NCBI GenBank assembly: GCA_017609205.1 | Contig: JAFCEL010000001.1 | Location: 214,183-278,182, forward strand | DNA: 64,000 bases | Direction of reading: 5' to 3' | Source: Candidatus Pacearchaeota archaeon | GTDB taxonomy: Archaea > Nanobdellota > Nanobdellia > Pacearchaeales > GW2011-AR1 | Part shown: piece after piece, positions 43,335 through 58,400 of the stretch | How positions within the stretch are numbered: the stretch's first letter is position 1 | How the letters are laid out: each line of letters begins with the position of its first letter | Notes under the pieces: model-generated | Database searches by the model: none | The model's input: the letters and a program-made list of their open reading frames with translations, nothing else | Told to the model about the DNA's origin: nothing | Made by a program: the position numbers and the translations under genes

Positions 43335-44276
43335 ATGCCGACAAGAAAATCGCCAAGAAAAGGAAGTTTACAATTTTGGCCAAGAAAACGGGCCAGTAAG
43401 TTTTTACCTAGAGTAAACTGGGATGCTATTTCTTCTGGTAAAAATCTCAAAGGATTTATATGTTACAAAGCTGGTATGGCTTCTGTATCTATTAAAGACA
43501 ATACCCCTGATTCTATGACAAAAGGCAAAGAAAGAATAATTCCTGCAACAATTCTTGAATGCCCTGCTATGAAGATTTTCTCTGTAAGATTTTATAAAAA
43601 TAAAAAAGTTGCAAATGAAATTCTTGCTGAAAAATTGGACAAAGAACTTAAGAAAAAGATTAAGATTCCAAAAAAACATAAAAAATTAGAAGAAATAAAA
43701 TTAGAAGATTATGATGATATTCGACTAATCTGTTATTCAATTGTCAAAAAAACAGGAATAAAAAAGAAACCGGATTTAAGTGAAATAGGATTAAAAGGAA
43801 GTTTTGAAGAAAAAATAAATTTTGTTAAAGAAAACCTGAATAAAGAGATTTCAATTGAAAATGTTTTTGAAAAAGGGCAATTAGTTGATGTTAGGGGATT
43901 AACTAAGGGCAAAGGTTTTCAAGGCCCTGTTAAAAGATTTGGAATTACATTGAGAGTTCATAAGTCAGAGAAAGGTGTAAGAAAAGTTGGAAGTATTGGT
44001 CCGTGGCATCCTGCACGGGTAACATTCAGAGTTCCAATGGCAGGACAACTTGGTATGTTCACAAGAGTCATTTATAATAATAAAATTCTAGATATGGGCA
44101 AATCCGAAGACAAATTCAGGAACATAAAAAATTTTGGAGACATAAAAACAAATTATATGATAATTACGGGTTCTGTTCAAGGACCTGCAAAAAGGCAACT
44201 GCTTGTTACTTCTCCTCTAAGAGAAACAAAAAAACAGAAAAAGAAAAATTATGAATTACTGGAGATATTGAAATGA
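43335..44276 (+). CDS. rpl3: ribosomal protein uL3
   Basis: 'PRKGSLQFWPRKRA', 'GKGFQGPVKRFG'. Confidence 0.9.
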   Translation: MPTRKSPRKGSLQFWPRKRASKFLPRVNWDAISSGKNLKGFICYKAGMASVSIKDNTPDSMTKGKERIIPATILECPAMKIFSVRFYKNKKVANEILAEKLDKELKKKIKIPKKHKKLEEIKLEDYDDIRLICYSIVKKTGIKKKPDLSEIGLKGSFEEKINFVKENLNKEISIENVFEKGQLVDVRGLTKGKGFQGPVKRFGITLRVHKSEKGVRKVGSIGPWHPARVTFRVPMAGQLGMFTRVIYNNKILDMGKSEDKFRNIKNFGDIKTNYMIITGSVQGPAKRQLLVTSPLRETKKQKKKNYELLEILK

Positions 44277-45061
44277 AAACTAAAATATTCTCGGTCAAAG
44301 GGAAAGAAAAAGGAGAAATTGCACTTCCTAAATGTTTTTCTGCTCCGATAAGAGAAGATATTGTGCAGAAAGTTTTGGAAATTAAAAAGACAAAACAACC
44401 TTACGGACCAAACCCTCTTGCAGGAAATTATTCTGCTGCAGGAAAAATCGTCCATAGAAGACACGTATGGAAATCTCAATATGGGAGAGGAATATCAAGA
44501 GTGCCAAGAAAGATATTCTCACGTAGGGGCTCTCAATTTAATTGGGAAGGTGCAACTGCCCCAAATACAAGAGGTGGAAGAAGGGCTCATCCTCCTAAGC
44601 CAATCTCAATGATTAGCACTAAAAAAATAAATAAAAAAGAATTAAAAATTGCGTTTGAATCTGCATTAAGCGCAACTGCTAACAAAGAATTTATTGAAAA
44701 AAAGTATGAAAGAATTGAAAAAATAGATAAGAAGGTTCCATTTGTCGTTGATTCTGAAATTGTTAAATTAAAAATAAAAGAAATCATAAAAAGCCTGAAG
44801 GAAATTCTTGGGGAGAAACTCTTTGATATTGCAATTAAGAAAAAAAGCATTCGTGCTGGAAAAGGAAAGATGAGAGGAAGAAGATACAAAAAGAGCGCAG
44901 GAATCTTAATAGTTATTGGTGAGAATGAAAAATTGAAAACAAAGCAGTTTGATGTAGTCAATGTTAAGAATTTGGGAGTTAATGACCTAGCAAAAGGGGG
45001 CCTTGGAAGATTAACAATCTATACAGAAAATGCAATTAAATTTTTGGAAGGAAAAAAATGA
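44273..45061 (+). CDS. rpl4: ribosomal protein uL4
   Basis: 'GRGISRVPR', 'TRGGRRAHPPK', 'RAGKGKMRGRRY'. Confidence 0.9.
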   Translation: MKTKIFSVKGKEKGEIALPKCFSAPIREDIVQKVLEIKKTKQPYGPNPLAGNYSAAGKIVHRRHVWKSQYGRGISRVPRKIFSRRGSQFNWEGATAPNTRGGRRAHPPKPISMISTKKINKKELKIAFESALSATANKEFIEKKYERIEKIDKKVPFVVDSEIVKLKIKEIIKSLKEILGEKLFDIAIKKKSIRAGKGKMRGRRYKKSAGILIVIGENEKLKTKQFDVVNVKNLGVNDLAKGGLGRLTIYTENAIKFLEGKK

Positions 45062-45216
45062 ATTTCTTAAATCTTGAACAAAAAATGGATATACACGGAA
45101 ATTTAACTAAAGGGGATATTTGTGAAAGAGAATTTTTCAATCCAGAAGATTATCGTTGTAAAAATTGTGATGATTATAAAGTATGTATGCAAAAGTATGG
45201 GAGGAAAGATGAATAA
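45058..45216 (+). CDS. 52-aa four-Cys micro-protein, translationally coupled to rpl4 and to the exonuclease gene
   Basis: Not in the track. My translation is MNFLNLEQKMDIHGNLTKGDICEREFFNPEDYRCKNCDDYKVCMQKYGRKDE. ATGA overlap with the rpl4 stop, and its TAA overlaps the next ATG (ATGAATAA). SD-like 'GGAAGGA' upstream. Confidence 0.45.
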   Translation: MNFLNLEQKMDIHGNLTKGDICEREFFNPEDYRCKNCDDYKVCMQKYGRKDE

Positions 45217-45859
45217 CCAAATTTTACCTATAGTATTAGATATAGAAACAAGCGGACTTAATATGCTTAAATCAGGGATCTGGCAAATTGGTGCAATTGA
45301 TTTAAACACAATGGAAGAATTTTTTGATGAATGTAGAATCGACGAAGAAGATGAAATAGCTAAAGAAGCATTAGTCATTATTGGAAAAACAGAAGAAGAA
45401 TTAAGAGATAAAAATAAAGAAACTCAAAAAAAATTAATCGAGAAATTCTTAAGATGGATTGATAAAAGAAAGATGATAAATTTTGTCTGCCAAGGTCCGC
45501 AATTTGATATGGGTTTTTTAATAGCAAAGATTAATAAGTATAACCTTAAAGAAACATTTCATTATAGAGCCTTTGATTTGCATACCATTGCACAAATGAG
45601 ATATTATGAGAAAAATAAGAAGTTTAAAATTAAGGATAATAAAAGTGATATGAGTCTTTCTGAAATATTGAATTTTTGTGGTTTACCTGATGAGAGAAGA
45701 TTACTTGAAAAAGGAGACATAGTAAAAGAAGGTAAACCTCACAATGCTCTTGAAGACGCAAAACTTACAGCAGAATGCTTTTCACGGATTATTTTTGGAA
45801 AGAATCTCCTTCCTAAATTTACTAAATTTAACATCCCAGAGGAATTGAAAAATGATTAA
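45209..45859 (+). CDS. DEDDh (DnaQ-like) 3'-5' exonuclease inserted between rpl4 and rpl23
   Basis: ExoI 'LDIETSGL', ExoII 'QGPQFDMGFL', ExoIII 'HNALEDAKL'. Start taken at ATG 45209, preceded by SD 'GGGAGGA' (the track ORF begins at GTG 45122). Confidence 0.75.
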   Translation: MNNQILPIVLDIETSGLNMLKSGIWQIGAIDLNTMEEFFDECRIDEEDEIAKEALVIIGKTEEELRDKNKETQKKLIEKFLRWIDKRKMINFVCQGPQFDMGFLIAKINKYNLKETFHYRAFDLHTIAQMRYYEKNKKFKIKDNKSDMSLSEILNFCGLPDERRLLEKGDIVKEGKPHNALEDAKLTAECFSRIIFGKNLLPKFTKFNIPEELKND

Positions 45860-46091
45860 ACCACTTACAACTGAAAAAGCAGTAATAAAAATTGAATCAG
45901 AGAATGTTTTGACTTTTATAGTGGATATTAATAAAACAAAAGACGAAATTAAAAAAGAAATTGAAAAACTGTTTGAAGTAAAAGTTGAAAAGATAAGAAC
46001 ATTGATAAGAGATAACAAAAAATATGCTTATGTTAAATTAAAAAAAGACTTTCTTGCTATTGATTTAGCGACAAAGTTAGGTATCATGTAA
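45852..46091 (+). CDS. rpl23: ribosomal protein uL23
   Basis: 79 aa. 'KPLTTEKAV...ENVLTFIVD...KKEIEKLFEVKVEKIRTL' and operon position. Confidence 0.85.
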   Translation: MIKPLTTEKAVIKIESENVLTFIVDINKTKDEIKKEIEKLFEVKVEKIRTLIRDNKKYAYVKLKKDFLAIDLATKLGIM

Positions 46092-46096
46092 TAAAT

Positions 46097-46795
46097 ATGG
46101 GAAAAAGAATAATTCAACAACGAAGAGGAAGGGGAACTCTTACTTATAAAGTTCGAAAAAAAGCATTTAGATATAAGCTACAATTCCCAAGAAAATTAGA
46201 AGGAGAGGGAGAAGTTGTAAAGTTAATTAATTCTCCAGGACATACAGCTCCAATTGCAAAGATCAAATTTAATGAGGGTATTTTTTATATTCCTGCATGT
46301 GAAAAAATGTTTGAAGGACAAAAAATAAACTTTGATGAAAAAAAACCTAAAGAAGGAAATATTGTAAAGATGAAATATTTACCTGTGAAAACAAAAGTTT
46401 ATTGTATTGAATCACGTCCTGGAGATGGAGGGAAATTTATAAAGGCTGGAGGAAATTCTGCAATGATAAACCGAATTGTCGGAGAGAAGATATTTGTAAT
46501 TATGCCCTCAAAAAAAGAAAAAGAATTTAATTCAGAATGCCGAGCAGTCGTAGGCATTATTGCAGGAGATCAAAGGAAAAACAAACCAGTGGTCAAGGCA
46601 GGAAAAAAATACCATATTAAAAAATCAAAAAGCAAGTTATGGCCCAGAACCTCTGCAGTAAAAATGAACGCAATTGACCATCCATTCGGCTCTGGTCGAG
46701 GAAAAAATCCTAAAAGCAAGATTGCTAAAAGAAATGCTCCGCCTGGAAGAAAAGTTGGATTAATAAGACCGAGGAGGACAGGTAAAAGAAAATGA
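46097..46795 (+). CDS. rpl2: ribosomal protein uL2
   Basis: 'GGKFIKAGGNSAMI', 'AIDHPFGSGRGK'. Confidence 0.9.
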   Translation: MGKRIIQQRRGRGTLTYKVRKKAFRYKLQFPRKLEGEGEVVKLINSPGHTAPIAKIKFNEGIFYIPACEKMFEGQKINFDEKKPKEGNIVKMKYLPVKTKVYCIESRPGDGGKFIKAGGNSAMINRIVGEKIFVIMPSKKEKEFNSECRAVVGIIAGDQRKNKPVVKAGKKYHIKKSKSKLWPRTSAVKMNAIDHPFGSGRGKNPKSKIAKRNAPPGRKVGLIRPRRTGKRK

Positions 46796-46834
46796 ATCTA
46801 AAAAATAAACAAAAATTTATCAAAGAATCAAATA

Positions 46835-47239
46835 ATGATTAAAATGGAAATAACAAAAAAACAATTCACATATAGAGGGAAAACAATTGAAGAATTAAAA
46901 AAATTAGATATTCGTGAATTTGCAAAATTAGTTCCTTCCAGAAATAGAAGAAATATTCTAAGAAATTTTCAAAAGATAGAGGATTTTGTCAAAAGATCTA
47001 GAAAGAAGATTGAAAAAGAAAAACCAATAAAAACACATTCAAGAGATTTGATTGTTGTTCCTGAAATGATTGGATGGAAAATTATGGTTCATAATGGAAA
47101 TAAATTCATACCAGTACAGATAATCGGAGAAATGCTTGGACATAAACTCGGAGAATTTGCACCTACAAGAGCAAGAATTAAACATAGTAAAGCAGGTGTA
47201 GGAGCAACAAAAGGAACTAAACATAAATCGAAAAAATGA
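46835..47239 (+). CDS. rps19: ribosomal protein uS19
   Basis: '[28 protein letters not shown]'. Confidence 0.9.
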
Positions 47240-47284
47240 TTTTCAGATTATTTAAGATAAATTCAATGAGAAATAAGAAATAAA

Positions 47285-47920
47285 ATGCCAAATACAGAAA
47301 AACCAACAACAATTGCAGCAAAAAAACAACAAGGGATAGTTAAAACCCCAAAAATAAAATCAAATCAAGCTAAAACATTGGAACCAAAAAATTCAGTGAT
47401 TAAAAAAAATGAAAAATCCCCTGAAGAAGATAAAAAAGAGAAAAGAGAAGATAAAAAAATTGAAAAGAAAAAAGAATCTAAAAAACAAGTTATTAAAAAA
47501 ATCAAAAAAGAAGAAGTTGTTGTTAATGCTAAAAACCTTCATATATCAACAAAAAAATCTGCTGCTATTTGTAAATTTCTAAAAGGGAAAAAAATTGAGA
47601 CTGCAATTGAACAGTTGGAAGAGGTTCTCAAACTAAAGAGAGCTATCCCAATGAAAGGGGAAATCCCTCATAAAAAAGGCAGAATTATGTCAGGAAGATA
47701 TCCTCAAAATGCAGTTAAGGAATTTTTAGTCTTATTAAAAAGCCTTCAAGGAAACGCGAATAACCATGATGTTGAGGAGCCAGTTATTGTTGAAGCGATT
47801 GCAAACATTGGTGAAAGACCTTTAGGAAGGTTTGGCAGGTGGAAAAGAAAAAGAACCCATATTAGAATCGTTGCACGAGAAAAGAAAATGATTAAAAACA
47901 AGGAGAGGAAGAAAATATAA
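47285..47920 (+). CDS. rpl22: ribosomal protein uL22 with a Lys-rich N-terminal extension of about 75 aa
   Basis: The core starts at 'VVNAKNLHISTKKSAAICKFLKGK'. The preceding K/E-rich segment is not part of canonical uL22. Confidence 0.8.
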   Translation: MPNTEKPTTIAAKKQQGIVKTPKIKSNQAKTLEPKNSVIKKNEKSPEEDKKEKREDKKIEKKKESKKQVIKKIKKEEVVVNAKNLHISTKKSAAICKFLKGKKIETAIEQLEEVLKLKRAIPMKGEIPHKKGRIMSGRYPQNAVKEFLVLLKSLQGNANNHDVEEPVIVEAIANIGERPLGRFGRWKRKRTHIRIVAREKKMIKNKERKKI

Positions 47921-47921
47921 A

Positions 47922-48608
47922 ATGGAAGAGAAAAATATTGTGAGATTCAAAAAAGAAGAATTTGCTGTTCGTGAAAGTATTAAGAAATTTTTAGGTAAGG
48001 GAAAAGTCAGCAGAGTCAAGATCATCTATACCCCTGTTGGAGAGAAGATAGTTATTTCAACACATAAACCAGGACTAGTCATTGGAAGAAAAGGAGAGAA
48101 AATCGAAGAGATAACAAAAATTTTAAAATCCCGATTCAAACTTGAAAACCCTTCTATTGAAATTGATGAGATTAAAAAACCTGAATTTGATGCTCAAATA
48201 AATGCAGATGAAATTGCACTAGAACTTGAGAGATTTGGCCCTCTAAAGTTCAAGGTAATTGCTTATAGGACTCTTAAGAGAATTATGAGTTCTGGGGCAT
48301 TAGGAGCTGAAATAAGGTTAAATGGGAAACTTCCAGGTTCGAGAGCAAAACCATGGAGATTTGCTCAGGGATATCTCAAAAAAACAGGTGATTCTGCAAA
48401 AGTTGTTGATAGAGCTCAAGCAAGAGCAGAAACAAAACCAGGAACAGTTGGAGTCAAAGTAGCCATACTATCTCCTGAAGCAAAGTTGCAAGATAAGATA
48501 ATAATCGACGAAGAAATGCTCGATAGAATTAAAAAGAATATAGAGATCAAAGAAGAAAATAAATCACCAAAGAAAAAAGGTTCTAGAAAGAAAAAGAAAA
48601 CAAAATGA
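47922..48608 (+). CDS. rps3: ribosomal protein uS3
   Basis: KH domain 'PGLVIGRKGEKIEEI'. 'GAEIRLNGKL'. Confidence 0.9.
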   Translation: MEEKNIVRFKKEEFAVRESIKKFLGKGKVSRVKIIYTPVGEKIVISTHKPGLVIGRKGEKIEEITKILKSRFKLENPSIEIDEIKKPEFDAQINADEIALELERFGPLKFKVIAYRTLKRIMSSGALGAEIRLNGKLPGSRAKPWRFAQGYLKKTGDSAKVVDRAQARAETKPGTVGVKVAILSPEAKLQDKIIIDEEMLDRIKKNIEIKEENKSPKKKGSRKKKKTK

Positions 48609-48805
48609 AATTTAGAGAAATTCAAAAATTGAGTAAGTCAGACAGAGAGAAAAAGCTTAAAGAGCTAAGACTCGAATTAATCAAATCACAAACAGGCGCC
48701 TCTAAACAAGGGGGTTCAAAAGCAAGACAAATTAGGAAGATTATTGCAAGAATACTCACACTCAACAACTCTGAAAATAAATCAGAAAAGTTGAATGAAA
48801 AATAA
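48605..48805 (+). CDS. rpl29: ribosomal protein uL29
   Basis: 'REIQKLSKSDREKKLKELRLELIK' and operon position. Confidence 0.85.
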   Translation: MKFREIQKLSKSDREKKLKELRLELIKSQTGASKQGGSKARQIRKIIARILTLNNSENKSEKLNEK

Positions 48806-48808
48806 ACA

Positions 48809-49108
48809 ATGGAAATATGTCCAAAATGTGGCCTGCCAAGGCAGGCATGTGTGTGTGAACAAATCGGAAAAAGTTCGCAAAGAATAACTGTGACAACAGA
48901 CAAAAAAAGATATGGAAAGATAGTGACTGTTGTCTCAGGATTTGATAGCGACATAGATATCAAGCAAATCGCAAAAGCACTGAAAAGTGAACTTGCTTGT
49001 GGAGGGACCTCCAAAGAGAATACAATTGAACTTCAAGGAGACCACACAAGGAGAATAAAACCCCTCCTTGTGAAACTTGGCTTTGAAGAAGAATTAATAA
49101 GCGATTAA
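48809..49108 (+). CDS. eif1: translation initiation factor aIF1 (SUI1)
   Basis: N-terminal Cys knuckle 'CPKCG...CVC' plus 'KRYGKIVTVVSGF' and 'ACGGTSKENTIELQGDH'. Confidence 0.85.
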   Translation: MEICPKCGLPRQACVCEQIGKSSQRITVTTDKKRYGKIVTVVSGFDSDIDIKQIAKALKSELACGGTSKENTIELQGDHTRRIKPLLVKLGFEEELISD

Positions 49109-49135
49109 TTCCATCACACAAGAACAAAGAGAAAA

Positions 49136-49534
49136 ATGGCGAAGAAAGAACAAACAGAGAAAGCAGGAGAAAGAATGAAAGATAGCTGTGCTGATGTTAA
49201 ATGCCCTTTCCATGGAAAATTGAAAATTCGTGGAAGGAGCTTTGAAGGAAGAGTTATAAGAAAATTCCCCAAAAGAATTACAATCGAATTAGAAAGAATG
49301 ATCTACATAAGAAAATATGAAAGATATACAAAGTCAAGAACGAAAATTCATGCGCGACTTCCTGATTGTCTAGAAAAAGAGATTAACATTGGGGATTTAG
49401 TCAAGGTGCAAGAGTGCCGTCCATTAAGTAAAATAATCCATTTTGTCGTTACTGAAAAAATTAAAGATACTAATCTTAAACAAGATTCAGATATCGCGCA
49501 TCATAGGAGTATAAAACAAGGAGATAAAAAATGA
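49136..49534 (+). CDS. rps17: ribosomal protein uS17
   Basis: 'CPFHGKLKIRGRSFEGRV', 'GDLVKVQECRPLSK'. Confidence 0.9.
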   Translation: MAKKEQTEKAGERMKDSCADVKCPFHGKLKIRGRSFEGRVIRKFPKRITIELERMIYIRKYERYTKSRTKIHARLPDCLEKEINIGDLVKVQECRPLSKIIHFVVTEKIKDTNLKQDSDIAHHRSIKQGDKK

Positions 49535-49932
49535 AAGCTGTTAGTGCCAAACCTACAAGAGCATTTAACTTAGGAGCATATTTAATTGCAGCAGACAATA
49601 GTGGTGCAAAAGTTGTAAAATTAGTTGGAGTAAAAAAAGGAAAAAGTAAGAAAGGTCGACAAGGCTATGCTAAAATTGCAGATTGGGTTAAAGTAAGTAT
49701 CAGAAAAGGTGTTCCAGATATGAAAGGGAAAGTTTTTGATGCAGTAATAATCAGACAAAAAAGACCTTATAAAAGAAAAACAGGGGAAAGAGTTGCATTT
49801 GAAGATAATGCTGTTGCAATTCTAAAAGATGACAAAGGGAATCCAAAAGGAACTCAGATTAAAGGACCAATTGCAAGGGAGGTTTTAGAGCGATGGCCAA
49901 GTGTGGCAAAAATCGCAAATATTGTTTATTAA
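49531..49932 (+). CDS. rpl14: ribosomal protein uL14
   Basis: 'ADNSGAK...VKL', 'AVIIRQKRPYKR', 'FEDNAVAI'. Confidence 0.9.
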   Translation: MKAVSAKPTRAFNLGAYLIAADNSGAKVVKLVGVKKGKSKKGRQGYAKIADWVKVSIRKGVPDMKGKVFDAVIIRQKRPYKRKTGERVAFEDNAVAILKDDKGNPKGTQIKGPIAREVLERWPSVAKIANIVY

Positions 49933-52005: not shown

Positions 52006-52290
52006 ATGTTAATAGGAATAAAAAACCTCAGAGAGAATATTGAAAAGAGCGTTGCTGATACAACGCTGATTTATCAGGACTTATTCGAGGTAATGTACTC
52101 TATAATGAGTGAAGCAGATAAAACCTCTCTGGATAACGGTAGAAGAAGAATCGAACAAATGTTAGACACATATAAGAATCTAATGAATATTTACAAAATA
52201 ACTAGAAGAGAGTCTATGATAGATCCAAGATATTTTGATAAAATACTTAAAAAAAGTTTAGAATTAAAAGGTTTGGAGGTTGAACTATAA
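52006..52290 (+). CDS. 94-aa hypothetical helical protein inserted between rps14 and rps8
   Basis: The ATG lies 1 nt after the rps14 stop and the stop lies 1 nt before the rps8 ATG. The rps8 SD (GGAGGT) lies inside its 3' end. No motif recognised. Confidence 0.4.
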   Translation: MLIGIKNLRENIEKSVADTTLIYQDLFEVMYSIMSEADKTSLDNGRRRIEQMLDTYKNLMNIYKITRRESMIDPRYFDKILKKSLELKGLEVEL

Positions 52291-52291: not shown

Positions 52292-52672
52292 ATGTCACAC
52301 GATGTAGTTGCCGACGGACTAAATATGATAAAGAATGCAAAAAGAGCTAGAAGAAACTCTGTAAAAATAAAAAGAATATCTAATCTCTTAATTGAAATTT
52401 TGAAAATAATGAAGCAAAAAGAAGCAATTAAAAAATATAAGATTAACAGCAAAAATAAATCTGTTGAGGTGACTTTAGGAGATATAATTGAATGTAAGGC
52501 AATAAAACCTAGATTCAGTTGTGATGTTTCACAGATTGAAAAATACAGAAGAAGATATTTACCTGCAAGAAATATGGGAACAATGATCGTTTCAACGAAT
52601 AAAGGAATTATGACTCATGAAGAAGCTCAAAAAGAAAATGTTGGAGGGTGCTTAATTGCATTTTTTTACTGA
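52292..52672 (+). CDS. rps8: ribosomal protein uS8
   Basis: 'DVVADGLNMIKNA', C-terminal 'GIMTHEEAQKENVGGCLIAFFY'. Start at ATG 52292 with SD GGAGGT. Confidence 0.9.
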   Translation: MSHDVVADGLNMIKNAKRARRNSVKIKRISNLLIEILKIMKQKEAIKKYKINSKNKSVEVTLGDIIECKAIKPRFSCDVSQIEKYRRRYLPARNMGTMIVSTNKGIMTHEEAQKENVGGCLIAFFY

Positions 52673-52706
52673 TGGTCCTAAAAATAAACAGACAGAGGAT
52701 TGAAAT

Positions 52707-53249
52707 ATGAAAAAAGAATTAATCAAAGTTGTTGAAATCCCAGACGAAGTAGAGATTAAGAGAGAAGATGATATTTTAATTGTAAAAGGCCCTCTTGGAG
52801 AAAATAAAAAGAAGATAGGCATAGGGAAACTAATTTTTGAAATAGGAGAAAAAGAAATTAAAATAGGACATAAAAAAGCTACAAAAAAAGAAAAAAAGAG
52901 AATTAACACAATTGTAGCGCACATAAAAAACATGATTAAAGGTGTAAAGGAAAAACATGAATATAAATTGAAAATATGTTCAAGCCATTTCCCAATAAAT
53001 GTAAATGTCGAAAATGGAAAGGTAGTTATCAAAAATTTTCTTGGAGAGAAAAATGATAGGGAAGCAGAAATTCCAGAAGGAGTTGAAGTGGAAATTAAAG
53101 GGCAAGAAATAATTGTATCATCAACCAATAAAGAGCTTGCTGGGCAAGCTGCTGCAAACCTTGAAAGAGCAACGAAAATTCGTGGAAAAGACAGGAGAAT
53201 ATTCCAAGATGGAATTTACATAACCCACAAAGGAGGAAAAGAAATATGA
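52707..53249 (+). CDS. rpl6: ribosomal protein uL6
   Basis: Two-domain uL6 pattern. 'LKICSSHFPINV', 'IRGKDRRIFQDGIYI'. Confidence 0.9.
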   Translation: MKKELIKVVEIPDEVEIKREDDILIVKGPLGENKKKIGIGKLIFEIGEKEIKIGHKKATKKEKKRINTIVAHIKNMIKGVKEKHEYKLKICSSHFPINVNVENGKVVIKNFLGEKNDREAEIPEGVEVEIKGQEIIVSSTNKELAGQAAANLERATKIRGKDRRIFQDGIYITHKGGKEI

Positions 53250-53566
53250 AATTTATAAGACGGGACTGGTTTAGGTTTGGAAAATTCAAAAGAAAGAAAA
53301 AACAGAAATGGAGAAGACCTACAGGAAGGGATAATAAAATGAGAGAAAAAAGAAAAGGATATCCTGCAGTGGTTAGCATTGGATATAAAAAACAAAATAG
53401 AAGAATTCAAAGAGTTATCTTTAATTTAAAAGACCTGGATAGGATAAAAAAAGATGAAATCGTTGTTTTAGGAAAAGTCGGAAAGAAAAAACGAGAAGAA
53501 ATTTTAAAAAAAGCCAAAGAAAAAAACATAAGCATTTCTAATATAAAAAGGAAAAAACAAAAATGA
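53246..53566 (+). CDS. rpl32e: ribosomal protein eL32
   Basis: 'KKQKWRRPTGRDNKMR' and operon position. Confidence 0.85.
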   Translation: MKFIRRDWFRFGKFKRKKKQKWRRPTGRDNKMREKRKGYPAVVSIGYKKQNRRIQRVIFNLKDLDRIKKDEIVVLGKVGKKKREEILKKAKEKNISISNIKRKKQK

Positions 53567-53970
53567 ACCTCGCAAAGAAAAAAACATTAGCTCAGAAAGT
53601 TCTCAAAATTGGAAAAAGAAGAATCTCATTTGTGAAATCAAGAATCGACGAAATTAAAGAAGCGTTAACAAAACAAGATATAAGGGATCTTTATGAAGGA
53701 GGAGCGATCATTGTAAAAGATAAAAAAGGAAGAAGAGCAAAAAAGAAAGGAAAAAGAAAGAGAGGTCCTGGAAAAATAAAGAAGACTGTTAATAAAAGAA
53801 AGAGAGAGTATGTTGTTCTGACAAGAAAATTAAGAAAATATGTAGCTGAATTAAAGAAAAAAGGGGAATTGAGCTCTGAGGAAGCAAAAGAAATCAGAAA
53901 AAAAATAAGAAACCGAAATTTTAGAAGCAAAAGCCATTTAAAAGAATATATTGGAAATTTGAGAAAATGA
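53563..53970 (+). CDS. rpl19e: ribosomal protein eL19
   Basis: 'LAQKVLKIGKRRI', 'RRAKKKGKRKRGPG'. Confidence 0.85.
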   Translation: MNLAKKKTLAQKVLKIGKRRISFVKSRIDEIKEALTKQDIRDLYEGGAIIVKDKKGRRAKKKGKRKRGPGKIKKTVNKRKREYVVLTRKLRKYVAELKKKGELSSEEAKEIRKKIRNRNFRSKSHLKEYIGNLRK

Positions 53971-54434
53971 TGAATAAAGAATTATTAAAAGAACTTGAAG
54001 ATAAATTTCAGATTATGCAGAGAGATCTAGGAATTAAATCATCTCTTGAGGAGCTTGATGAGATATTTTTTATTAAAGATCATATTCTTAAAGAAGGGTT
54101 TGTAAGCAATAATTTATCTAGACAAATTTGTTCAAGAATAGTCGAAACTTATATGAGTTGGACGAACTATCTTCATAGCCTTGTAGTTCCAAATCCCCAA
54201 AATATATTAAATATAAGTGAAGCTAAATTGTTTGATTCTGAAGAGAAAAAAATAATAAACGATCTTATGAAAAAAACAATGAAACTTAATAGCAGAAATA
54301 ATCTTATTTGTCTTACAAAAGATAAAAAAGAAGAAAGCGAATTCATAGACGACGCCATTCGAGAATGGAGAGAGAACTTTAATCGAAAATTAATACAAAT
54401 AATTAATAAAATTAAAGAAGGGTGGGAAAAATGA
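53967..54434 (+). CDS. 155-aa hypothetical protein inserted between rpl19e and rpl18
   Basis: ATGA overlaps at both ends (53967-53970 and 54431-54434). Helical and acidic. No motif recognised. Confidence 0.45.
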   Translation: MMNKELLKELEDKFQIMQRDLGIKSSLEELDEIFFIKDHILKEGFVSNNLSRQICSRIVETYMSWTNYLHSLVVPNPQNILNISEAKLFDSEEKKIINDLMKKTMKLNSRNNLICLTKDKKEESEFIDDAIREWRENFNRKLIQIINKIKEGWEK

Positions 54435-54922
54435 AAACCTTAAAGAAAAGAAGAAGAGAATGCAGAACAAATTACAAAAAAAGATTAAACCTTCTTAAAG
54501 GTGAAAGACCAAGACTAGTCTTCAGAAGAACAAATAAATACCTTATTGCACAGTATGTAGTCAGCAAAGAAGCAAAAGACAAGATTCTCTTTGGAATAAC
54601 ATCAAAAGAATTAATAAAATACGGCTGGCCTGAAAGTTCTGCCGGAAGTTTAAAATCAATCCCGGCTTCATATCTAACAGGACTTTTAATCAGCAAAGAA
54701 ATAATTAAAAAGAAACTAGAACACCCAATTGTTGATTTTGGGATGTTAAGAACACTCCATAAAACAAGAATTTTTGCTTTTTTGAAAGGATTGATCGACG
54801 GAGGATTAGACATTAAATGTCCTAAAGAAAGTTTTCCAGAAGAAGAAAGAATAAAAGGCCGTGATTTGAAAAATAAAATTTTATTTGAGGAAATTAAATC
54901 AAAAATAGAAAAAATAAAATGA
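54431..54922 (+). CDS. rpl18: ribosomal protein uL18
   Basis: 'RRECRTNYKKRLNLL....PRLVFRRTNKYLIAQ'. Start at ATG 54431. Confidence 0.9.
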   Translation: MKTLKKRRRECRTNYKKRLNLLKGERPRLVFRRTNKYLIAQYVVSKEAKDKILFGITSKELIKYGWPESSAGSLKSIPASYLTGLLISKEIIKKKLEHPIVDFGMLRTLHKTRIFAFLKGLIDGGLDIKCPKESFPEEERIKGRDLKNKILFEEIKSKIEKIK

Positions 54923-55707
54923 CTGAAAAAAAAGAAAAGAACTTCGAGGATGAATTTGCAGAGATTCCTGAGGATATTTTAGATGAAGAAGAATTATTAG
55001 AACTTAAAAAAATGAAAGAAGAAACCGAAGAAAGAGTAAATGGAAAAGAAGAGACAAAAAAAGAAAAAAAACCGGTTTCTGCTTGGGATCCAAAAACAAA
55101 ATTAGGAAAAGACGTTAAGAGCGGGAAAATAAAAGATATTGATGAAATATTAGAAAAGAATCAAAAAATTTTAGAGCCAGAGATCGTTGATTCCTTGATT
55201 GAAATCCAATCAGATTTAATCTCAATTGGACAATCAAAAGGAAAGTTTGGTGGAGGAAAAAGAAGGGCATGGAGACAAACGCAACGAAAAACTAAAGAAG
55301 GAAATGTTCCAAGTTTTTCAACAATGGCTGTTGTTGGCGACGGAAAGGGACATGTCGGGATTGGAGAGGGAAAAGCAAAAGAGACTCTTCCTGCAAGAGA
55401 TAAGGCAATTAGAAAAGCTAAATTAAATATATTCAAAATTAAAAGAACTTGCTCTGCATTTGATTGTGATTGCACAGAAAAGCATACAATCCCTTACAAA
55501 ATTGAAGGAAAATGCGGGAGTGTGAGAGTTGTTCTCATTCCTGCACCACAAGGAACAGGATTAGTGGTGGGAAGAGAATTGAAAAAGGTCTTAACCTTAG
55601 CAGGAATAAAAGATGTTTACAGTAAAACATTTGGAAAGAAGAGAACTACATTTAATTTGGTCAAGGCATGTATTAATGCATTAAAGAAAACTAATCCATA
55701 TCAATAA
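54919..55707 (+). CDS. rps5: ribosomal protein uS5 with acidic N-terminal extension
   Basis: 'FSTMAVVGDGKGHVGIGEGKAKE', 'GTGLVVGRELKKVLTLAGIKDV'. Confidence 0.9.
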   Translation: MTEKKEKNFEDEFAEIPEDILDEEELLELKKMKEETEERVNGKEETKKEKKPVSAWDPKTKLGKDVKSGKIKDIDEILEKNQKILEPEIVDSLIEIQSDLISIGQSKGKFGGGKRRAWRQTQRKTKEGNVPSFSTMAVVGDGKGHVGIGEGKAKETLPARDKAIRKAKLNIFKIKRTCSAFDCDCTEKHTIPYKIEGKCGSVRVVLIPAPQGTGLVVGRELKKVLTLAGIKDVYSKTFGKKRTTFNLVKACINALKKTNPYQ

Positions 55708-55708
55708 A

Positions 55709-56140
55709 ATGAAAATTGCAGTTATTAGGATAAGAGGGCAAGTAGGACTAAAGAAAGAAATAGCTGAAACTCTCAATAGATTAAGATTAAGAAGAAAATA
55801 TAGTTGTGTTGTTTTTGAAAATCCAACAAAAGTTCAATTAGGGATGATAAAGAAGGTTAGAGATTTTGTGGCTTATGGGGAAATTAATGAAGAAACATTA
55901 AAAAATTTAATAGAAAAAAGAGGGCAATTGATTAGTAAGAAAAAGGATATTCCGAACAGCGAAGAAGTTATTAAAGGACTGCATGAAGGGAAAAAATTTG
56001 AAGATTTTAATTTAAAACCTTTTTTTAGATTGCATCCTCCTCGAGGAGGGATTGAAAGCAAAAAACATTTTAGTGTAGGAAAAGGTGTCTTAGGCGATAA
56101 CAAAGATAAAATAAATGATCTTATTAGGAGGATGCTATGA
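55709..56140 (+). CDS. rpl30: ribosomal protein uL30
   Basis: 'IAVIRIRGQVGLKKEIAETLNRLRL'. Confidence 0.9.
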   Translation: MKIAVIRIRGQVGLKKEIAETLNRLRLRRKYSCVVFENPTKVQLGMIKKVRDFVAYGEINEETLKNLIEKRGQLISKKKDIPNSEEVIKGLHEGKKFEDFNLKPFFRLHPPRGGIESKKHFSVGKGVLGDNKDKINDLIRRML

Positions 56141-56382
56141 TTTTTGATAAATTTCAACAAAAAGAAATCTTCTTACAAGGCGTTGCAGAATCACCAACTT
56201 TTCCAGGAAAATCGTATTATATTATTACCAAAGAAGGAGAGATTGTAAGAATCTCAAAGGATTTATATGAGAAATTCAGATTTATAGTTTATAAAAAAGA
56301 AGATGACGCTTATGTTCCTTGTTCACGAGGGGATATTACAGATAAGATATTAAAAGAAAGGCTGGATAAAGCATTAAAATGA
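56137..56382 (+). CDS. 81-aa hypothetical protein inserted between rpl30 and rpl15
   Basis: ATGA overlaps at both ends. Strong SD 'TAGGAGGA' 4 nt upstream. No motif recognised. Confidence 0.5.
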   Translation: MIFDKFQQKEIFLQGVAESPTFPGKSYYIITKEGEIVRISKDLYEKFRFIVYKKEDDAYVPCSRGDITDKILKERLDKALK

Positions 56383-56855
56383 AACTCAAAAAAAGAAAGA
56401 AATCATCAAGAATGCATGGAAGAAAGATGGGAACTCACGGAGGTGGAGCTAGAGTTAAAAGGAAAAAAAGCGGAAGTAAAGGAGGTGTTGGTATGGCTGG
56501 GAGTGGAAAGAGAGGAGACCAGAAAAAAACACTTATCTATAAAAAGTATGGAAATAAATATTTTGGCAAACAAGGAATTACAAGCAGAAAGACACAAAAG
56601 AAAAAAGAGAATAAGATAAATCTTCAACAAATTGAAGCAAATATTGATAATTATGGAAAGAAAACAGCAAAAGGTTGGGAAATTGATTTAAGAGATTACA
56701 AAATCCTTGGAACAGGTGAGATAAAAAATAAACTAATTATAAGTGCGAAATCAGCTTCGAAATCTGCAATTGAAAAAGTTAAAAAAGCTGGTGGAGAGAT
56801 AATTCTTTCAGAAAAGGTTAAGAAACAAGAAATTAAAAAAAAGAAAAAAGATTAG
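56379..56855 (+). CDS. rpl15: ribosomal protein uL15
   Basis: 'KKSSRMHGRKMGTHGGG...GGVGMAG' and operon position. Confidence 0.85.
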   Translation: MKLKKRKKSSRMHGRKMGTHGGGARVKRKKSGSKGGVGMAGSGKRGDQKKTLIYKKYGNKYFGKQGITSRKTQKKKENKINLQQIEANIDNYGKKTAKGWEIDLRDYKILGTGEIKNKLIISAKSASKSAIEKVKKAGGEIILSEKVKKQEIKKKKKD

Positions 56856-56960
56856 AACTAAAAGAGGTTTTTGGGATTTGTTCTTATGACTCAATCAGAT
56901 AGGTTACCTCATAAACCTTCTTGCAGAAACCTTTTAAACCATTTCAAATAATTAATATTT

Positions 56961-58400
56961 ATGGATTTGAGAAACATATTCCAATTTATTCCAGAGGTTA
57001 CAAAACCTTCTGAAAAGAAAGTTGGGTTTAATGTAAAACTTAAATGGACCTTAATAGTCCTTGTAAGTTTCTTTATATTAGCAAATATTCCTCTATTCGG
57101 ATTATCTGAAAATGCTCTTGGAAGATTTGAATATCTTGCAATTGTTCTTGGAACTTCTTTTGGGAGTATTATCTCTCTTGGAGTTGGACCAATTGTAATG
57201 GCATCGATTATTTTGCAATTATTAACTGGTTCGGGAATCTTAAATATCGACACAACAACTACTGAAGGCAAGAAATTTTTTCAAGGTATTCAAAAATTAC
57301 TTGTATTCTTTTTTATAGTTTTTGAAGCAACAGTATATGTTCTGATGAAAGGACTAGAGGCTACTCCAGGTTTTACTGGTCTGCTGATTGCTCAATTAAT
57401 ATTGGGAGGGCTTGCAATTTTTTATATGGATGAAGTTACAAGTAAATGGGGTTTTGGATCTGGTGTTAGTTTATTTATTGGGGCAGGTGTCTCGTGGAGG
57501 ATTTTTACGTCTGCATTTCAATTCATAAATCAACAAGGAAAAAATTGTCTCCTTGATTTCAAGAATACTGCATGCTCAGGGAAATTTCTTGTTTTAATCC
57601 AGTCAATAATTAATAAATATCCTATAGAATTCTTTTCTGCAGCAGCGACGATAATTGCTACAATCTTAATCTTTCTTGTTGTTGTATGGGCTCAATCATT
57701 AAAGGTTGAAATTCCTCTTTCATTTGGAAGGATTCGTGGATATTCTGTAAAATGGCCATTGTCATTTTTTTATGCTTCTGTTATTCCTGTAATCTTAACT
57801 TCCGCATTAATTGCGAATCTACAATTATTCGGAGGGATGCTCGAGAATGCTGCTGCCCCTTGTTTTATTGAGGGGGGAGTTTGTTCAGGCTCTGCAAAGA
57901 TAGCATCTTATTTCGGATGGCTCGGGCATTTTGTTCAAGGACGAGCAGTTTCAGGATTTGCTTTTTGGCTAGGATCAACGAATCTTCTTGAATTATTTAT
58001 TCGTGGAGGATTTTTACCGAAATACTTATTGCAAGGATTGACCCATATGATGTTCTTTATGTTTTTTTCAACAATATTCGCTGTTTTCTGGGTTAAAACT
58101 TCAGGAATGGATCCAAAAGCACAAGCAGAAAAAATTGCTGCATCAGGTTTGCAGGTTGCTGGTTTCAGGCAGGATATTAGAATTTTAGAGAGTATATTAA
58201 ATAGATATATAATGCCCTTAACAGTCATGGGTGGTTTGGCCATTGGTCTGCTCGCGTCATTGACTAATTCGCTCGGGGCATTAGTTTCAGGGACTGCAAT
58301 ATTGCTAGTTATTATGATTATGTTTCAGTTCTATCAGAACATTGCACAACAACACTCAGTCGATATGAATCCTGCAATGAAAAAATTTATGGGAGGTTAA
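56961..58400 (+). CDS. secY: protein translocase subunit SecY
   Basis: 10-TM protein. 'LGVGPIVMASIILQLL', 'GSGVSLFI'. Position after rpl15. Confidence 0.9.
   Translation: MDLRNIFQFIPEVTKPSEKKVGFNVKLKWTLIVLVSFFILANIPLFGLSENALGRFEYLAIVLGTSFGSIISLGVGPIVMASIILQLLTGSGILNIDTTTTEGKKFFQGIQKLLVFFFIVFEATVYVLMKGLEATPGFTGLLIAQLILGGLAIFYMDEVTSKWGFGSGVSLFIGAGVSWRIFTSAFQFINQQGKNCLLDFKNTACSGKFLVLIQSIINKYPIEFFSAAATIIATILIFLVVVWAQSLKVEIPLSFGRIRGYSVKWPLSFFYASVIPVILTSALIANLQLFGGMLENAAAPCFIEGGVCSGSAKIASYFGWLGHFVQGRAVSGFAFWLGSTNLLELFIRGGFLPKYLLQGLTHMMFFMFFSTIFAVFWVKTSGMDPKAQAEKIAASGLQVAGFRQDIRILESILNRYIMPLTVMGGLAIGLLASLTNSLGALVSGTAILLVIMIMFQFYQNIAQQHSVDMNPAMKKFMGG

What the first reader, a model, noticed from the sequence alone, without database searches (positions are those of the whole stretch)
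43335..58400. Archaeal L3-to-SecY ribosomal super-operon interrupted at five positions by six co-oriented, tightly coupled non-ribosomal ORFs
Seen in sequence:
- Gene order is L3-L4-[52 aa Cys ORF]-[DEDDh exonuclease]-L23-L2-S19-L22-S3-L29-SUI1-S17-L14-[79 aa]-L24-S4e-L5-S14-[94 aa]-S8-L6-L32e-L19e-[155 aa]-L18-S5-L30-[81 aa]-L15-SecY.
- Every insert is on the same strand. Each either overlaps its neighbours (ATGA or 8 nt) or is separated from them by a single nucleotide.
- The inserts show no similarity to each other by eye.

Established knowledge:
- This cluster is among the most conserved gene orders in archaea, and I know of no canonical gene at any of these five positions.
- Genes often found here are absent: the RNase P protein Rpp29 near S17, and adenylate kinase after SecY. 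After SecY the window has the DUF106 insertase and pfdA instead.

Inference: the inserts are co-expressed stoichiometrically with ribosomal proteins. They may be lineage-specific ribosome-associated or ribosome-biogenesis factors. Alternatively, some could be spurious ORFs in spacers.
Basis: partly seen in the sequence, partly recalled or inferred. Interest (0 to 1): 0.7.

Follow-up and report, generated by a model that had tools for sequence, protein, structure and literature searches.

The report
Variable guest genes in ribosomal operon
The ribosomal-protein operon of this tiny DPANN archaeon really does carry six extra genes wedged between ribosomal genes, but related genomes carry different, mostly unrelated extras at other junctions, so they look like fast-turnover guest genes riding a highly expressed operon and not like a fixed set of new ribosome parts.

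Summary

The ribosome-factor interpretation is mostly not supported. I compared about 100 related Woesearchaeota/Pacearchaeota loci:
- 22 of 25 junctions of this operon carry an insert in some genome.
- Genomes carry 0-7 inserts each.
- 128 insert ORFs fall into 100 families, 85 of them singletons.
- About 10% are ordinary enzymes (AdoHcy hydrolase, HAD, HIT, MazG, DEDDh exonuclease).

The closest full-length relative shares only the 155-aa insert.

What each window insert is:
- **216-aa insert:** a DnaQ-like DEDDh exonuclease (dN/dS about 0.2).
- **155-aa insert:** a conserved family of at least 61 members with a confident fold that has no PDB match. It usually sits at L19e-L18, but also at L3-L4, after LeuRS, and beside Msr/thioredoxin genes.
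- **79-aa and 81-aa inserts:** tiny families that also occur at another junction or outside the operon.
- **52-aa and 94-aa inserts:** orphans among about 15 billion proteins.

The best explanation is promoter-less accessory genes captured at stop/start junctions and expressed by translational coupling, with rapid gain, loss and divergence. I found no description of this in the searched literature.

The parts
43335..45061 (+). Ribosomal proteins L3 (43335-44276) and L4 (44273-45061), the upstream anchor of insert site 1
   Evidence: Pfam Ribosomal_L3 E=3.5e-58 and Ribosomal_L4 E=3.3e-22. The 3' end of L4 carries GGAAGGAAAAAAATGA, an SD-like motif plus an ATGA overlap with the 52-aa ORF.
45058..45216 (+). 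Insert 1a: 52-aa acidic orphan ORF (pI 5.3) with H13 and C22/C34/C37/C43. It may be a small zinc-binding protein or merely a translated bridge.
   Evidence: ORF. It has an ATGA overlap with L4 and an 8-nt overlap with the exonuclease start, and GGGAGGAAAG precedes that start. Only a sub-threshold ZZ zinc-finger hit, E=0.004. Only a self-hit among 1.84 billion representatives. Absent in relatives that have the exonuclease at this junction. Codon score 0.11, not distinguishable from controls. P(stop-free) = 0.01.
45209..45859 (+). Insert 1b: 216-aa DnaQ-like DEDDh 3'-5' exonuclease
   Evidence: Pfam RNase_T PF00929 E=4e-12, 47.4 bits against a cutoff of 24. PHROG 192 'DNA polymerase exonuclease subunit' E=8e-24. 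PADLOC DEDDh profile E=6e-17. PDB DnaQ 8h18 E=9e-7. Motifs DIETSG at residue 11, QFDMGFL at 98 and HNALEDA at 178. Orthologs sit at the same L4-L23 junction in L020/L031, L032 and L033. dN/dS 0.16-0.23.
45852..49932 (+). Uninterrupted block L23-L2-S19-L22-S3-L29-SUI1-S17-L14
   Evidence: Pfam hits for every gene. No Rpp29 domain between L29 and S17.
49934..50173 (+). Insert 2: 79-aa basic protein (pI 9.9), member of a small family that moves between junctions
   Evidence: 1-nt spacers on both sides. An 82%-identical homolog P0068 sits at the same L14-L24 junction in L083. Distant relatives sit at L14-L24 in L061 and at L5-S14 in L019. dN/dS 0.28, and dS 0.28 is far below the flanking genes (L14 0.79, S17 1.2). 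Absent from the closest relative L025.
50175..52004 (+). L24-S4e-L5-S14 block
   Evidence: Pfam. All junctions are 1-nt spacers.
52006..52290 (+). Insert 3: 94-aa orphan ORF (pI 6.3)
   Evidence: TAAnATG junctions on both sides. Its 3' end encodes GGAGG ahead of the S8 ATG at 52292. No Pfam, NCBIfam, PADLOC or PHROG hit. Only a self-hit in 1.84 billion representatives. The exact protein is present on at least 5 contigs with the same neighbours. P(stop-free) = 1e-4. Codon score 0.17.
52292..53970 (+). S8-L6-L32e-L19e block
   Evidence: Pfam.
53967..54434 (+). Insert 4: 155-aa all-helical protein of a conserved, unnamed family restricted to Woesearchaeota/Pacearchaeota-type archaea
   Evidence: 61 homologs at 45-67% identity, none with a Pfam domain or a name. 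Invariant residues F14, R52, W65, E85, W134 and W153. AF2 pLDDT 96.1, pTM 0.89, seven helices. No PDB or BFVD structural match and no PDB sequence match. dN/dS 0.14. Contexts: L19e-L18 in 8 loci, L3-L4 in 1, after LeuRS in 2, after MsrB in 1, Redoxin/MsrA in 1.
54431..56140 (+). L18-S5-L30 block
   Evidence: Pfam.
56137..56382 (+). Insert 5: 81-aa small beta-sheet-plus-helix protein (pI 8.6) of a three-member family
   Evidence: ATGA overlaps on both sides. Only two other clusters exist in 5.8 billion proteins. P0069 (45% identity) is at L30-L15 in L084. P0070 (36%) is outside any ribosomal operon, between Hjc and RadA. AF2 pLDDT 88.9: five strands plus a C-terminal helix. No PDB match. dN/dS about 0.48.
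56379..59407 (+). L15, SecY, EMC3/DUF106-type insertase and prefoldin alpha (end of the cluster; no adenylate kinase)
   Evidence: Pfam. The same SecY-EMC3-PfdA order is seen in relatives.

Best explanation
The six ORFs are real, promoter-less accessory genes lodged in the stop/start junctions of the L3-SecY operon. They are one snapshot of a clade-wide, fast-turnover process in Woesearchaeota/Pacearchaeota-type DPANN archaea.

**Shown**
- Each insert takes over the start-codon position that the downstream ribosomal gene occupies in uninserted relatives.
- Each insert ends in an ATGA or TAAnATG junction, usually with a GGAGG-like motif encoded in its own last codons.
- The set of inserts differs from genome to genome in position, number and family.
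- Most families are tiny or orphans and diverge faster than the flanking ribosomal genes.
- Several families occur at more than one junction or outside the operon.

**Inferred**
- Because of those junctions, ribosomes pass from gene to gene without a gap. The guests are therefore co-transcribed and co-translated at ribosomal-protein levels without polar effects.
- Genes arrive by recombination, for which the highly conserved flanking ribosomal genes provide homology. They persist if useful or harmless, drift quickly and are often lost.

**Content of the window**
- One DnaQ-like DEDDh exonuclease.
- One well-conserved helical protein of unknown function.
- Two narrow-family small proteins.
- Two orphans that may be young genes or mere translated bridges.
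For: - **Identity and junction anatomy:**
- **ORFs fill the gaps in relatives:** in 82 related loci there are 108 distinct gaps of 150-1300 nt between ribosomal genes. 80 are filled >=85% by one same-strand ORF, against 5 filled by an antisense ORF.
- **Tight coupling in relatives:** of 122 insert ORFs (median 83 aa), 111 start with ATG. Starts lie +1 nt (42), -4 nt (29) or -1 nt (10) from the upstream stop.
- **Variable position and number:** 22 of 25 junctions are used. Among 22 non-redundant full-length loci, 5 have no insert, 6 have one and 11 have 2-7.
- **Variable content:** 128 inserts fall into 100 families with 85 singletons. Some families sit at different junctions.
- **Ordinary cargo:** only about 12 of 122 hit Pfam. 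These are AdoHcy hydrolase, HAD, HIT, MazG, 2-thiouracil desulfurase, VIT1 and RNase_T.
- **Patchy distribution on the ribosomal-protein tree:**
- **Fast divergence:** homologous inserts are far more diverged than their flanks, for example 52% against 95%, with dN/dS 0.15-1.15.
- **Transfer signal:** the 79-aa insert is the opposite case. It is 82% identical to L083 with dS 0.28, while flanking S17 and L14 are 62-76% identical with dS 0.8-1.2. Nucleotide identity peaks over the insert and its immediate flanks.
- **Coding-like sequence:** population codon usage scores 0.265, against 0.09 for stop-free shuffles and antisense ORFs.
- **Mobility of the 155-aa and 81-aa families:** both are also found outside this junction or operon.
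Against: - No transcript, ribosome-profiling or proteomic data exist, so co-expression is inferred from sequence only.
- The recombination route rests on one clear case. The co-converted flank is only suggestive, because the 3' half of L14 has low dS in other genome pairs too.
- The 155-aa family is at L19e-L18 in 8 of 13 loci and in translation-related operons in 11 of 13. This fits a genuine translation-linked role better than pure hitch-hiking.
- I did not measure whether other operons in these genomes take up guests at the same rate, so the preference for ribosomal junctions is not shown.
Confidence: 0.7

Rival explanations
1. Lineage-specific ribosome-associated or ribosome-biogenesis factors, made in step with ribosomal proteins because they act on or in the ribosome.
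For: - The inserts are tightly coupled inside the operon.
- The 155-aa family is under purifying selection with a confident fold.
- That family lies at L19e-L18 in 8 independent loci, at L3-L4 in one and after LeuRS in two.
- The 79-aa insert is basic, pI 9.9, with an RRITQKRIKR stretch.
- A 3'-5' exonuclease could in principle trim rRNA.
Against: - Five of the six inserts are missing from the closest relative's operon.
- Two have no homolog anywhere.
- The 81-aa family also sits between Hjc and RadA.
- The 155-aa family also sits next to MsrB/MsrA/thioredoxin genes.
- Four of the six inserts are acidic (pI 5.3-6.3) and the 81-aa one is 8.6, whereas all ribosomal proteins here have pI >= 9.35.
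- The exonuclease's best profile matches are DnaQ and phage DNA-polymerase proofreading subunits, not RNases.
- Relatives insert obviously unrelated enzymes at the same kind of site.
Confidence: 0.15
2. Translated 'bridge' ORFs. Some inserts, above all the 52-aa and 94-aa orphans, are kept open only so that ribosomes carry on to the next ribosomal gene. The act of translation matters and the peptide does not.
For: - Both are orphans among about 15 billion proteins.
- Their codon scores (0.11 and 0.17) lie close to the control value of 0.09.
- Their 3' ends carry the SD for the downstream gene.
- Several insert families in relatives have dN/dS of 0.7-1.15.
- The closest relative has tandem 59-nt units at L14-L24. 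Each is an SD plus a 20-codon mini-ORF chained by ATGA overlaps.
Against: - Small basic ribosomal proteins score just as low on the codon test: L29 0.10, S14 0.08, L32e 0.08.
- As a population the inserts score higher than ribosomal genes.
- Four window inserts show purifying selection or confident folds.
- The hypothesis cannot be tested for orphans without close relatives.
Confidence: 0.3
3. Self-mobilising selfish elements: homing-endonuclease-like genes, integron cassettes, transposons or toxin-antitoxin modules that target ribosomal junctions.
For: - Same-orientation, promoter-less, mostly orphan small ORFs resemble integron cassettes.
- Families appear at different junctions.
- The 79-aa insert is less diverged than its flanks, as expected after horizontal spread.
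Against: - There are no HNH, GIY-YIG, LAGLIDADG, transposase, integrase or toxin/antitoxin families among the 6 window inserts or the 122 related inserts.
- There is no room for attC-like inverted repeats, and none are present. No target-site duplication flanks the inserts.
- The downstream junction type is independent of the upstream type.
- Most homologous inserts are more diverged than their flanks, not less.
Confidence: 0.07
4. Assembly or annotation artefact: chimeric metagenome contigs, or chance ORFs in spacers.
For: The source is a metagenome-assembled genome. The ORFs are short and the genome is AT-rich.
Against: - Stop-free frames are improbable by chance.
- The same architecture appears in dozens of independent assemblies.
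- The exact 94-aa protein with the same neighbours is on at least 5 contigs.
- Same-strand ORFs fill 80 of 108 gaps, against 5 for antisense ORFs.
Confidence: 0.02

Closest known systems
Canonical non-ribosomal residents of the S10-spc-alpha cluster (SecY, adenylate kinase, Map, IF1 in bacteria; SUI1, Rpp29, SecY, Adk, DUF106, Cmk in archaea) and sporadic additions such as Hsp20 in Thor-/Odinarchaeota clusters (PMC10833476)
   Same: These are non-ribosomal genes embedded co-directionally in the ribosomal super-operon and presumably co-transcribed with it.
   Different: The known residents are few, ancient and positionally fixed across phyla. Here the guests are numerous (0-7 per genome), use 22 of 25 junctions, belong to about 100 unrelated families and differ between close relatives.
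Phage 'morons' and other accessory genes slotted between conserved genes of a co-linear operon
   Same: Small, often orphan, strain-variable genes sit between conserved syntenic genes. The same junctions hold different genes in different genomes. Cargo includes MazG, HIT and exonucleases.
   Different: Morons typically bring their own promoter and terminator. These inserts have no intergenic space at all and depend on stop/start coupling. The host is a cellular chromosome's core operon, and none of the small inserts hits a PHROG family.
Integron gene cassettes, including archaeal integrons (PMC9668308)
   Same: Promoter-less, same-orientation, mostly unknown-function small ORFs expressed from an upstream promoter, with high turnover.
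   Different: There is no integrase, no attI, no attC-like inverted repeats and no room for them. Insertion occurs at many different sites, not in one array. The membership test failed.
DnaQ/RNase T-type DEDDh 3'-5' exonucleases (Pfam PF00929)
   Same: The 216-aa insert passes the Pfam threshold and has the Exo I, II and III motifs with His.
   Different: It is a stand-alone 216-aa protein encoded between L4 and L23 in one subclade only. Its substrate is unknown.

Membership tests
Archaeal S10-spc ribosomal super-operon | Co-linear order L3-L4-L23-L2-S19-L22-S3-L29-(SUI1)-S17-L14-L24-S4e-L5-S14-S8-L6-L32e-L19e-L18-S5-L30-L15-SecY on one strand | tested here: met
   Pfam identifies every gene. 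The order is identical in 20+ related loci.
DEDDh exonuclease (PF00929 RNase_T / DnaQ-like) | Profile match above the curated threshold | tested here: met
   47.4 bits against a gathering cutoff of 24. Supported by PHROG 192 at 8e-24, the PADLOC DEDDh profile at 6e-17 and PDB DnaQ 8h18 at 9e-7.
DEDDh exonuclease (PF00929 RNase_T / DnaQ-like) | Catalytic Exo I (DxE), Exo II (D) and Exo III (H-x4-D) motifs | tested here: met
   DIETSG at residue 11, QFDMGFL at 98 and HNALEDA at 178, read directly from the sequence.
DEDDh exonuclease (PF00929 RNase_T / DnaQ-like) | 3'-5' exonuclease activity and substrate (DNA or RNA) | not testable with these tools
   Needs a biochemical assay.
Ribosomal protein or dedicated ribosome-associated factor | Conserved presence and position across the lineage that shares the ribosome | tested here: not met
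   The closest relative L025 shares only the 155-aa insert. The 52-aa and 94-aa ORFs are orphans. Insert families switch junctions or lie outside the operon. Partial exception: the 155-aa family is at L19e-L18 in 8 of 13 loci.
Ribosomal protein or dedicated ribosome-associated factor | Strongly basic, rRNA-binding composition | tested here: not met
   Insert pI values are 5.3, 6.05, 6.3, 6.2, 8.6 and 9.9. All 22 ribosomal proteins have pI >= 9.35, median 10.25. Only the 79-aa insert is basic.
Ribosomal protein or dedicated ribosome-associated factor | Sequence or structural similarity to a known ribosomal protein or assembly factor | tested here: not met
   No Pfam or NCBIfam hit. No PDB sequence hit. 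No Foldseek hit for the 155-aa or 81-aa models.
Ribosomal protein or dedicated ribosome-associated factor | Physical association with ribosomes | not testable with these tools
   Needs ribosome purification with mass spectrometry or cryo-EM. No culture is known.
Integron gene cassette | attC recombination site (imperfect inverted repeat) at the 3' end of each cassette, with an adjacent intI/attI | tested here: not met
   The inserts overlap or abut their neighbours by -8 to +1 nt, which leaves no space. The repeat scan finds no flanking inverted repeats. No integrase lies in the cluster.
Free-standing homing endonuclease or transposable element | Nuclease or transposase domain, and target-site duplication or conserved ends | tested here: not met
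   No such Pfam family among the 6 window inserts or the 122 related inserts. No direct repeats bracket the inserts.
Toxin-antitoxin or anti-phage defence module | Match to known defence or TA families, with a paired-gene architecture | tested here: not met
   PADLOC hits only the generic DEDDh profile for the exonuclease. The inserts are single genes, apart from the 52-aa/exonuclease pair, which is unpaired in relatives.

The most novel reading that the evidence does not exclude
In Woesearchaeota/Pacearchaeota-type DPANN archaea, the stop/start junctions of the most conserved operon in biology act as an integrase-free gene landing pad and nursery.
- Foreign or newborn ORFs, including mini-ORFs made by tandem duplication of a junction as seen in L025, are captured there.
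- They are expressed at once at ribosomal-protein levels through translational coupling.
- They are exchanged between lineages by recombination anchored in the conserved ribosomal genes.
- They are then fixed, relocated or lost.

This would make the operon a major source of the orphan small proteins typical of these reduced genomes. Within that picture, the 155-aa family would be a guest that became a long-term, possibly translation-linked, resident with a new fold.
Probability: 0.35. Interest if true: 0.75.

Novelty: new variant of a known kind. Interest (0 to 1): 0.6.

Why it matters
**Phylogenomics.** The S10-spc cluster is the textbook example of frozen gene order, and its genes are the standard phylogenomic markers for metagenome-assembled genomes. 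A whole archaeal clade using its junctions as variable slots for accessory and orphan genes changes how that synteny should be read. Such ORFs are not automatically ribosome factors.

**Expression in reduced genomes.** It suggests how genomes with few regulators get new genes expressed: by translational coupling into a strong operon.

**Gene birth and turnover.** It offers a tractable natural system for studying the birth, turnover and horizontal exchange of small proteins.

**New protein families.** It flags two confidently folded families with no structural relatives, the 155-aa helical and the 81-aa beta-plus-helix proteins, for experimental work.

Tried and rejected
1. **A shared C-terminal motif** that I thought I saw by eye among many small inserts. 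All-against-all phmmer gave no support, so I dropped it.
2. **Concatenating the four small orphans into one query** for the word-indexed protein search. It returned nothing, not even self-hits, and one capped search was wasted. The same trick worked with the exhaustive HMMER search.
3. **Junction duplication as the general origin of inserts.** The first 30 nt of inserts are no more similar to their own downstream ribosomal gene than to permuted ones, 0.379 against 0.380. It remains only as an anecdote in L025.
4. **Target-site duplication or matching junction types at both ends.** Downstream junctions are -4 or +1 whatever the upstream type, and no flanking repeats were found.
5. **Horizontal spread as the general rule.** Only the 79-aa insert is less diverged than its flanks. 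The 155-aa insert, the exonuclease and the 81-aa insert match their flanks, and most other families are more diverged.
6. **A clean co-conversion tract around the 79-aa insert.** This is weakened because the 3' half of L14 has low dS in unrelated pairs too.
7. **A codon-usage frame test for individual short ORFs.** It does not discriminate, since 95% of stop-free shuffles also prefer frame 0. It is informative only as a population mean.
8. **Remote homology for the 155-aa and 81-aa proteins.** PDB sequence profiles and Foldseek against PDB and BFVD gave nothing significant.
9. **Rfam scan of the window.** It found only three tRNAs outside the cluster.
10. **Literature searches.** I found no description of the phenomenon.

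Full report

Yes. Six + strand ORFs lie between ribosomal genes:
- 52 aa, 45058-45216
- 216 aa, ATG 45209 to 45859
- 79 aa, 49934-50173
- 94 aa, 52006-52290
- 155 aa, 53967-54434
- 81 aa, 56137-56382

The junction sequences are ATGA overlaps, one 8-nt overlap, or TAAnATG with a single spacer base. GGAGG-like motifs sit in the last codons of the upstream ORF. The guest ORFs themselves carry such motifs for the next ribosomal gene, for example GGAGG at the end of the 94-aa ORF before the S8 ATG at 52292.

Composition-preserving shuffles give a stop-free frame across each insert with P between 0.01 and less than 5e-5. All six are gene calls in the public records of a 511-kb contig. The 94-aa protein with the same neighbours is found on at least five contigs. 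Assembly artefact is therefore excluded. No Rpp29 or adenylate kinase domain occurs in the cluster. SecY is followed by an EMC3/DUF106 protein and prefoldin alpha, as in relatives.

**2. What are the six ORFs individually?**

Pfam and NCBIfam recognise only the 216-aa protein, as an RNase_T/DnaQ-type DEDDh exonuclease.
- Its three catalytic motifs are intact.
- Its best profile matches are a phage 'DNA polymerase exonuclease subunit' family, the generic DEDDh profile in PADLOC and DnaQ structures.
- Orthologs occupy the same L4-L23 junction in one neighbouring subclade, without the 52-aa ORF. They evolve under purifying selection, dN/dS 0.16-0.23.

The 155-aa protein belongs to a family of at least 61 unnamed proteins of about 155 aa at 45-67% identity.
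- It has invariant Arg, Glu and Trp residues and near-invariant Cys55 and His70.
- dN/dS is 0.14.
- AlphaFold2 gives a very confident seven-helix model, pLDDT 96 and pTM 0.89.
- That model has no significant match in the PDB or in viral predicted structures.

An exhaustive HMMER search of 1.84 billion cluster representatives covered the other four.
- The 52-aa and 94-aa ORFs have only self-hits.
- The 79-aa ORF has one 82% relative.
- The 81-aa ORF has two relatives at 45% and 36%, confirmed as the whole family.
- The 81-aa protein folds confidently into five strands plus a C-terminal helix, pLDDT 89. It too has no PDB match.

None of the small ORFs hits a defence or phage family.

**3. Comparative context changes the picture.**

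I used S8 as an unbiased probe and fetched 24 genome loci and 58 metagenome loci from Woesearchaeota, Pacearchaeota and Nanoarchaeota MAGs. The order of the ribosomal genes is conserved, but the gaps are not.
- There are 108 distinct gaps of 150-1300 nt. 80 are filled at least 85% by one same-strand ORF, against 5 by an antisense ORF.
- The 122 distinct insert ORFs have a median length of 83 aa. 111 start with ATG. Starts lie +1, -4 or -1 nt from the upstream stop in 81 cases.
- 22 of the 25 junctions from L3 to prefoldin are used somewhere. S17-L14, S8-L6, L30-L15, S14-S8 and L14-L24 are the most used.
- Among 22 non-redundant loci spanning L3-L15, five have no insert, six have one and eleven have two to seven. 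The window's five occupied junctions are within that range.
- Clustering 128 inserts gives 100 families, 85 of them singletons.
- Only about a tenth hit Pfam, and those are ordinary enzymes and transporters. They include S-adenosylhomocysteine hydrolase between L32e and L19e, HAD, HIT, MazG, 2-thiouracil desulfurase, VIT1 and the exonuclease.
- As a population the inserts have coding-like codon usage, 0.265 against 0.09 for stop-free shuffles and antisense ORFs.

**4. Are the window's inserts conserved in place?**

Mostly not. On a tree of S8-S5 proteins the window's sister group (L025, L077, L001) shares only the 155-aa insert. It has tight, uninserted junctions at L4-L23, S14-S8 and L30-L15.

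At L14-L24 the sister genome has no homolog of the 79-aa ORF. Instead it has 2.3 tandem copies of a 59-nt unit. Each unit is an SD-like motif plus a 20-codon mini-ORF, chained by ATGA overlaps.

Families also move:
- The 79-aa family is at L14-L24 in the window, L083 and L061, but at L5-S14 in L019.
- A two-transmembrane family is at S8-L6, L14-L24 and L22-S3.
- The 81-aa family is at L30-L15 in L084, but between Hjc and RadA in L085.
- The 155-aa family is at L19e-L18 in eight independent loci, at L3-L4 in one, directly after LeuRS in two, after MsrB in one, and between a thioredoxin-like gene and MsrA in one.

**5. Dynamics.**

Homologous inserts at the same junction are usually much more diverged than the flanking ribosomal genes, for example 52% against 95% amino-acid identity. 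Their dN/dS ranges from 0.15 to about 1.1. Rapid divergence explains the many orphans.

The 79-aa insert is the exception. Against L083 it is 82% identical with dS 0.28, while S17 and L14 are 62% and 76% identical with dS 1.2 and 0.8. Nucleotide identity rises from about 72% to 85-97% over the insert and its immediate flanks. This indicates recent exchange between lineages. The flank signal is only suggestive, because the 3' half of L14 also has low dS in other pairs.

I found no recombination sites, target duplications, inverted repeats or mobility genes. Insert 5' ends do not resemble the downstream gene.

**6. Mechanism.**

Shown:
- The guest's start codon sits exactly where the downstream ribosomal gene's start sits in uninserted relatives.
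- The guest ends by recreating an ATGA or TAAnATG junction, often with an SD in its own coding sequence.

Inferred:
- The operon stays a gap-free chain of coupled ORFs. Guests are made without their own promoter, and downstream ribosomal genes suffer no polarity.
- Gain and exchange occur by recombination using the conserved ribosomal genes as homology arms. Rapid drift and loss follow.

The guests are not typical ribosomal proteins. Four of the six have pI 5.3-6.3, the 81-aa insert 8.6, and only the 79-aa insert (9.9) reaches the ribosomal range. All 22 ribosomal proteins here have pI of at least 9.35.

**7.

The description is accurate. 'Co-expressed' is plausible. 'Ribosome-associated factors' is not supported as a general reading, though it remains open for the 155-aa family, with 11 of 13 contexts in translation-related operons. 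'Spurious ORFs' is rejected for four of the six. It survives, as a translated-bridge variant, for the 52-aa and 94-aa orphans.

**8. Comparison with known systems and novelty.**

Non-ribosomal residents of this cluster are known (SecY, Adk, SUI1, Rpp29). Sporadic additions are also known, such as Hsp20 in some Asgard clusters (PMC10833476). These are few and fixed.

The behaviour here resembles phage morons or integron cassettes, but it fails their defining features. There are no own promoters or terminators, no attC and no integrase.

Full-text searches found no description of variable guest genes at ribosomal junctions in DPANN archaea. That absence is limited to the library searched. I rate it a new variant of a known kind (accessory genes hitch-hiking in operons), of moderate-to-high interest.

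**9. Limits.**
- There are no expression data.
- Relatives are MAG or metagenome contigs.
- dS is near saturation for several pairs.
- The rate of insertion in other operons was not measured. The rest of the window is also rich in genes without Pfam hits.
- The recombination route rests on one case.

Noticed in passing
L025:6671-6806 (L14-L24 junction of the closest relative, Ga0210018_1000528): A 59-nt tandem repeat (2.3 copies, 84% match). Each unit holds a GGAGG-like motif, an ATG and a 20-codon mini-ORF that ends in an ATGA overlap with the next unit. It may be a snapshot of de novo ORF formation at a junction.
   Followed up: partly
L055:11347-12612: A complete S-adenosyl-L-homocysteine hydrolase gene (Pfam AdoHcyase E=3e-75) sits between L32e and L19e in a related genome. 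Other relatives carry HAD, MazG, HIT and 2-thiouracil desulfurase genes between ribosomal genes.
   Followed up: partly
L088, L094, L090, L097 (contexts of 155-aa family members P0055, P0063, P0053, P0029): Outside the ribosomal operon, the 155-aa family sits right after MsrB (next to DoxX, VKOR and SOD), or between a DsbD/thioredoxin pair and MsrA, or right after LeuRS. Together with near-invariant Cys55 and His70, this hints at a redox or protein-repair role.
   Followed up: partly
L023 and L071 (same arrangement in both): The operon is rearranged. The L5-S14-S8-L6-L32e-L19e block lies between SUI1 and S17, so even the core order is not inviolate in this clade.
   Followed up: no
window:42429-43154 (+): A 241-aa gene with no Pfam hit lies immediately upstream of L3. 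A 234-aa gene with no Pfam hit occupies the same place, between an AI-2E transporter and L3, in L092. Sequence similarity between the two was not tested.
   Followed up: no
window:47285-47530 and 54919-55250: L22 has an N-terminal Lys/Glu-rich low-complexity extension of about 80 aa (211 aa in total). S5 has an acidic N-terminal extension of about 110 aa. Both are longer than the Pfam domain cores.
   Followed up: no
window:7840-17154 (+): A run of tightly packed genes (256, 1267, 257, 489, 163, 306, 176 and 160 aa). Seven of them were scanned and have no Pfam match; the 489-aa one was not scanned. Orphan-rich operons are therefore not confined to the ribosomal cluster.
   Followed up: partly
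window:26408-27081 (-): An L37ae / 45-aa zinc-ribbon (RpoP-like) / prefoldin-beta trio with 1-nt spacers and no guest genes. The RpoP assignment and its 'canonical' status are from memory, not tested.
   Followed up: partly
L084:2042-2401 and 5027-5335; L098:4229-4468 and 4884-5195; L096:5053-5202: Further unannotated guest ORFs lie at S8-L6, S5-L30, L30-L15 and L15-SecY in loci fetched for other reasons. This reinforces how common the phenomenon is.
   Followed up: no
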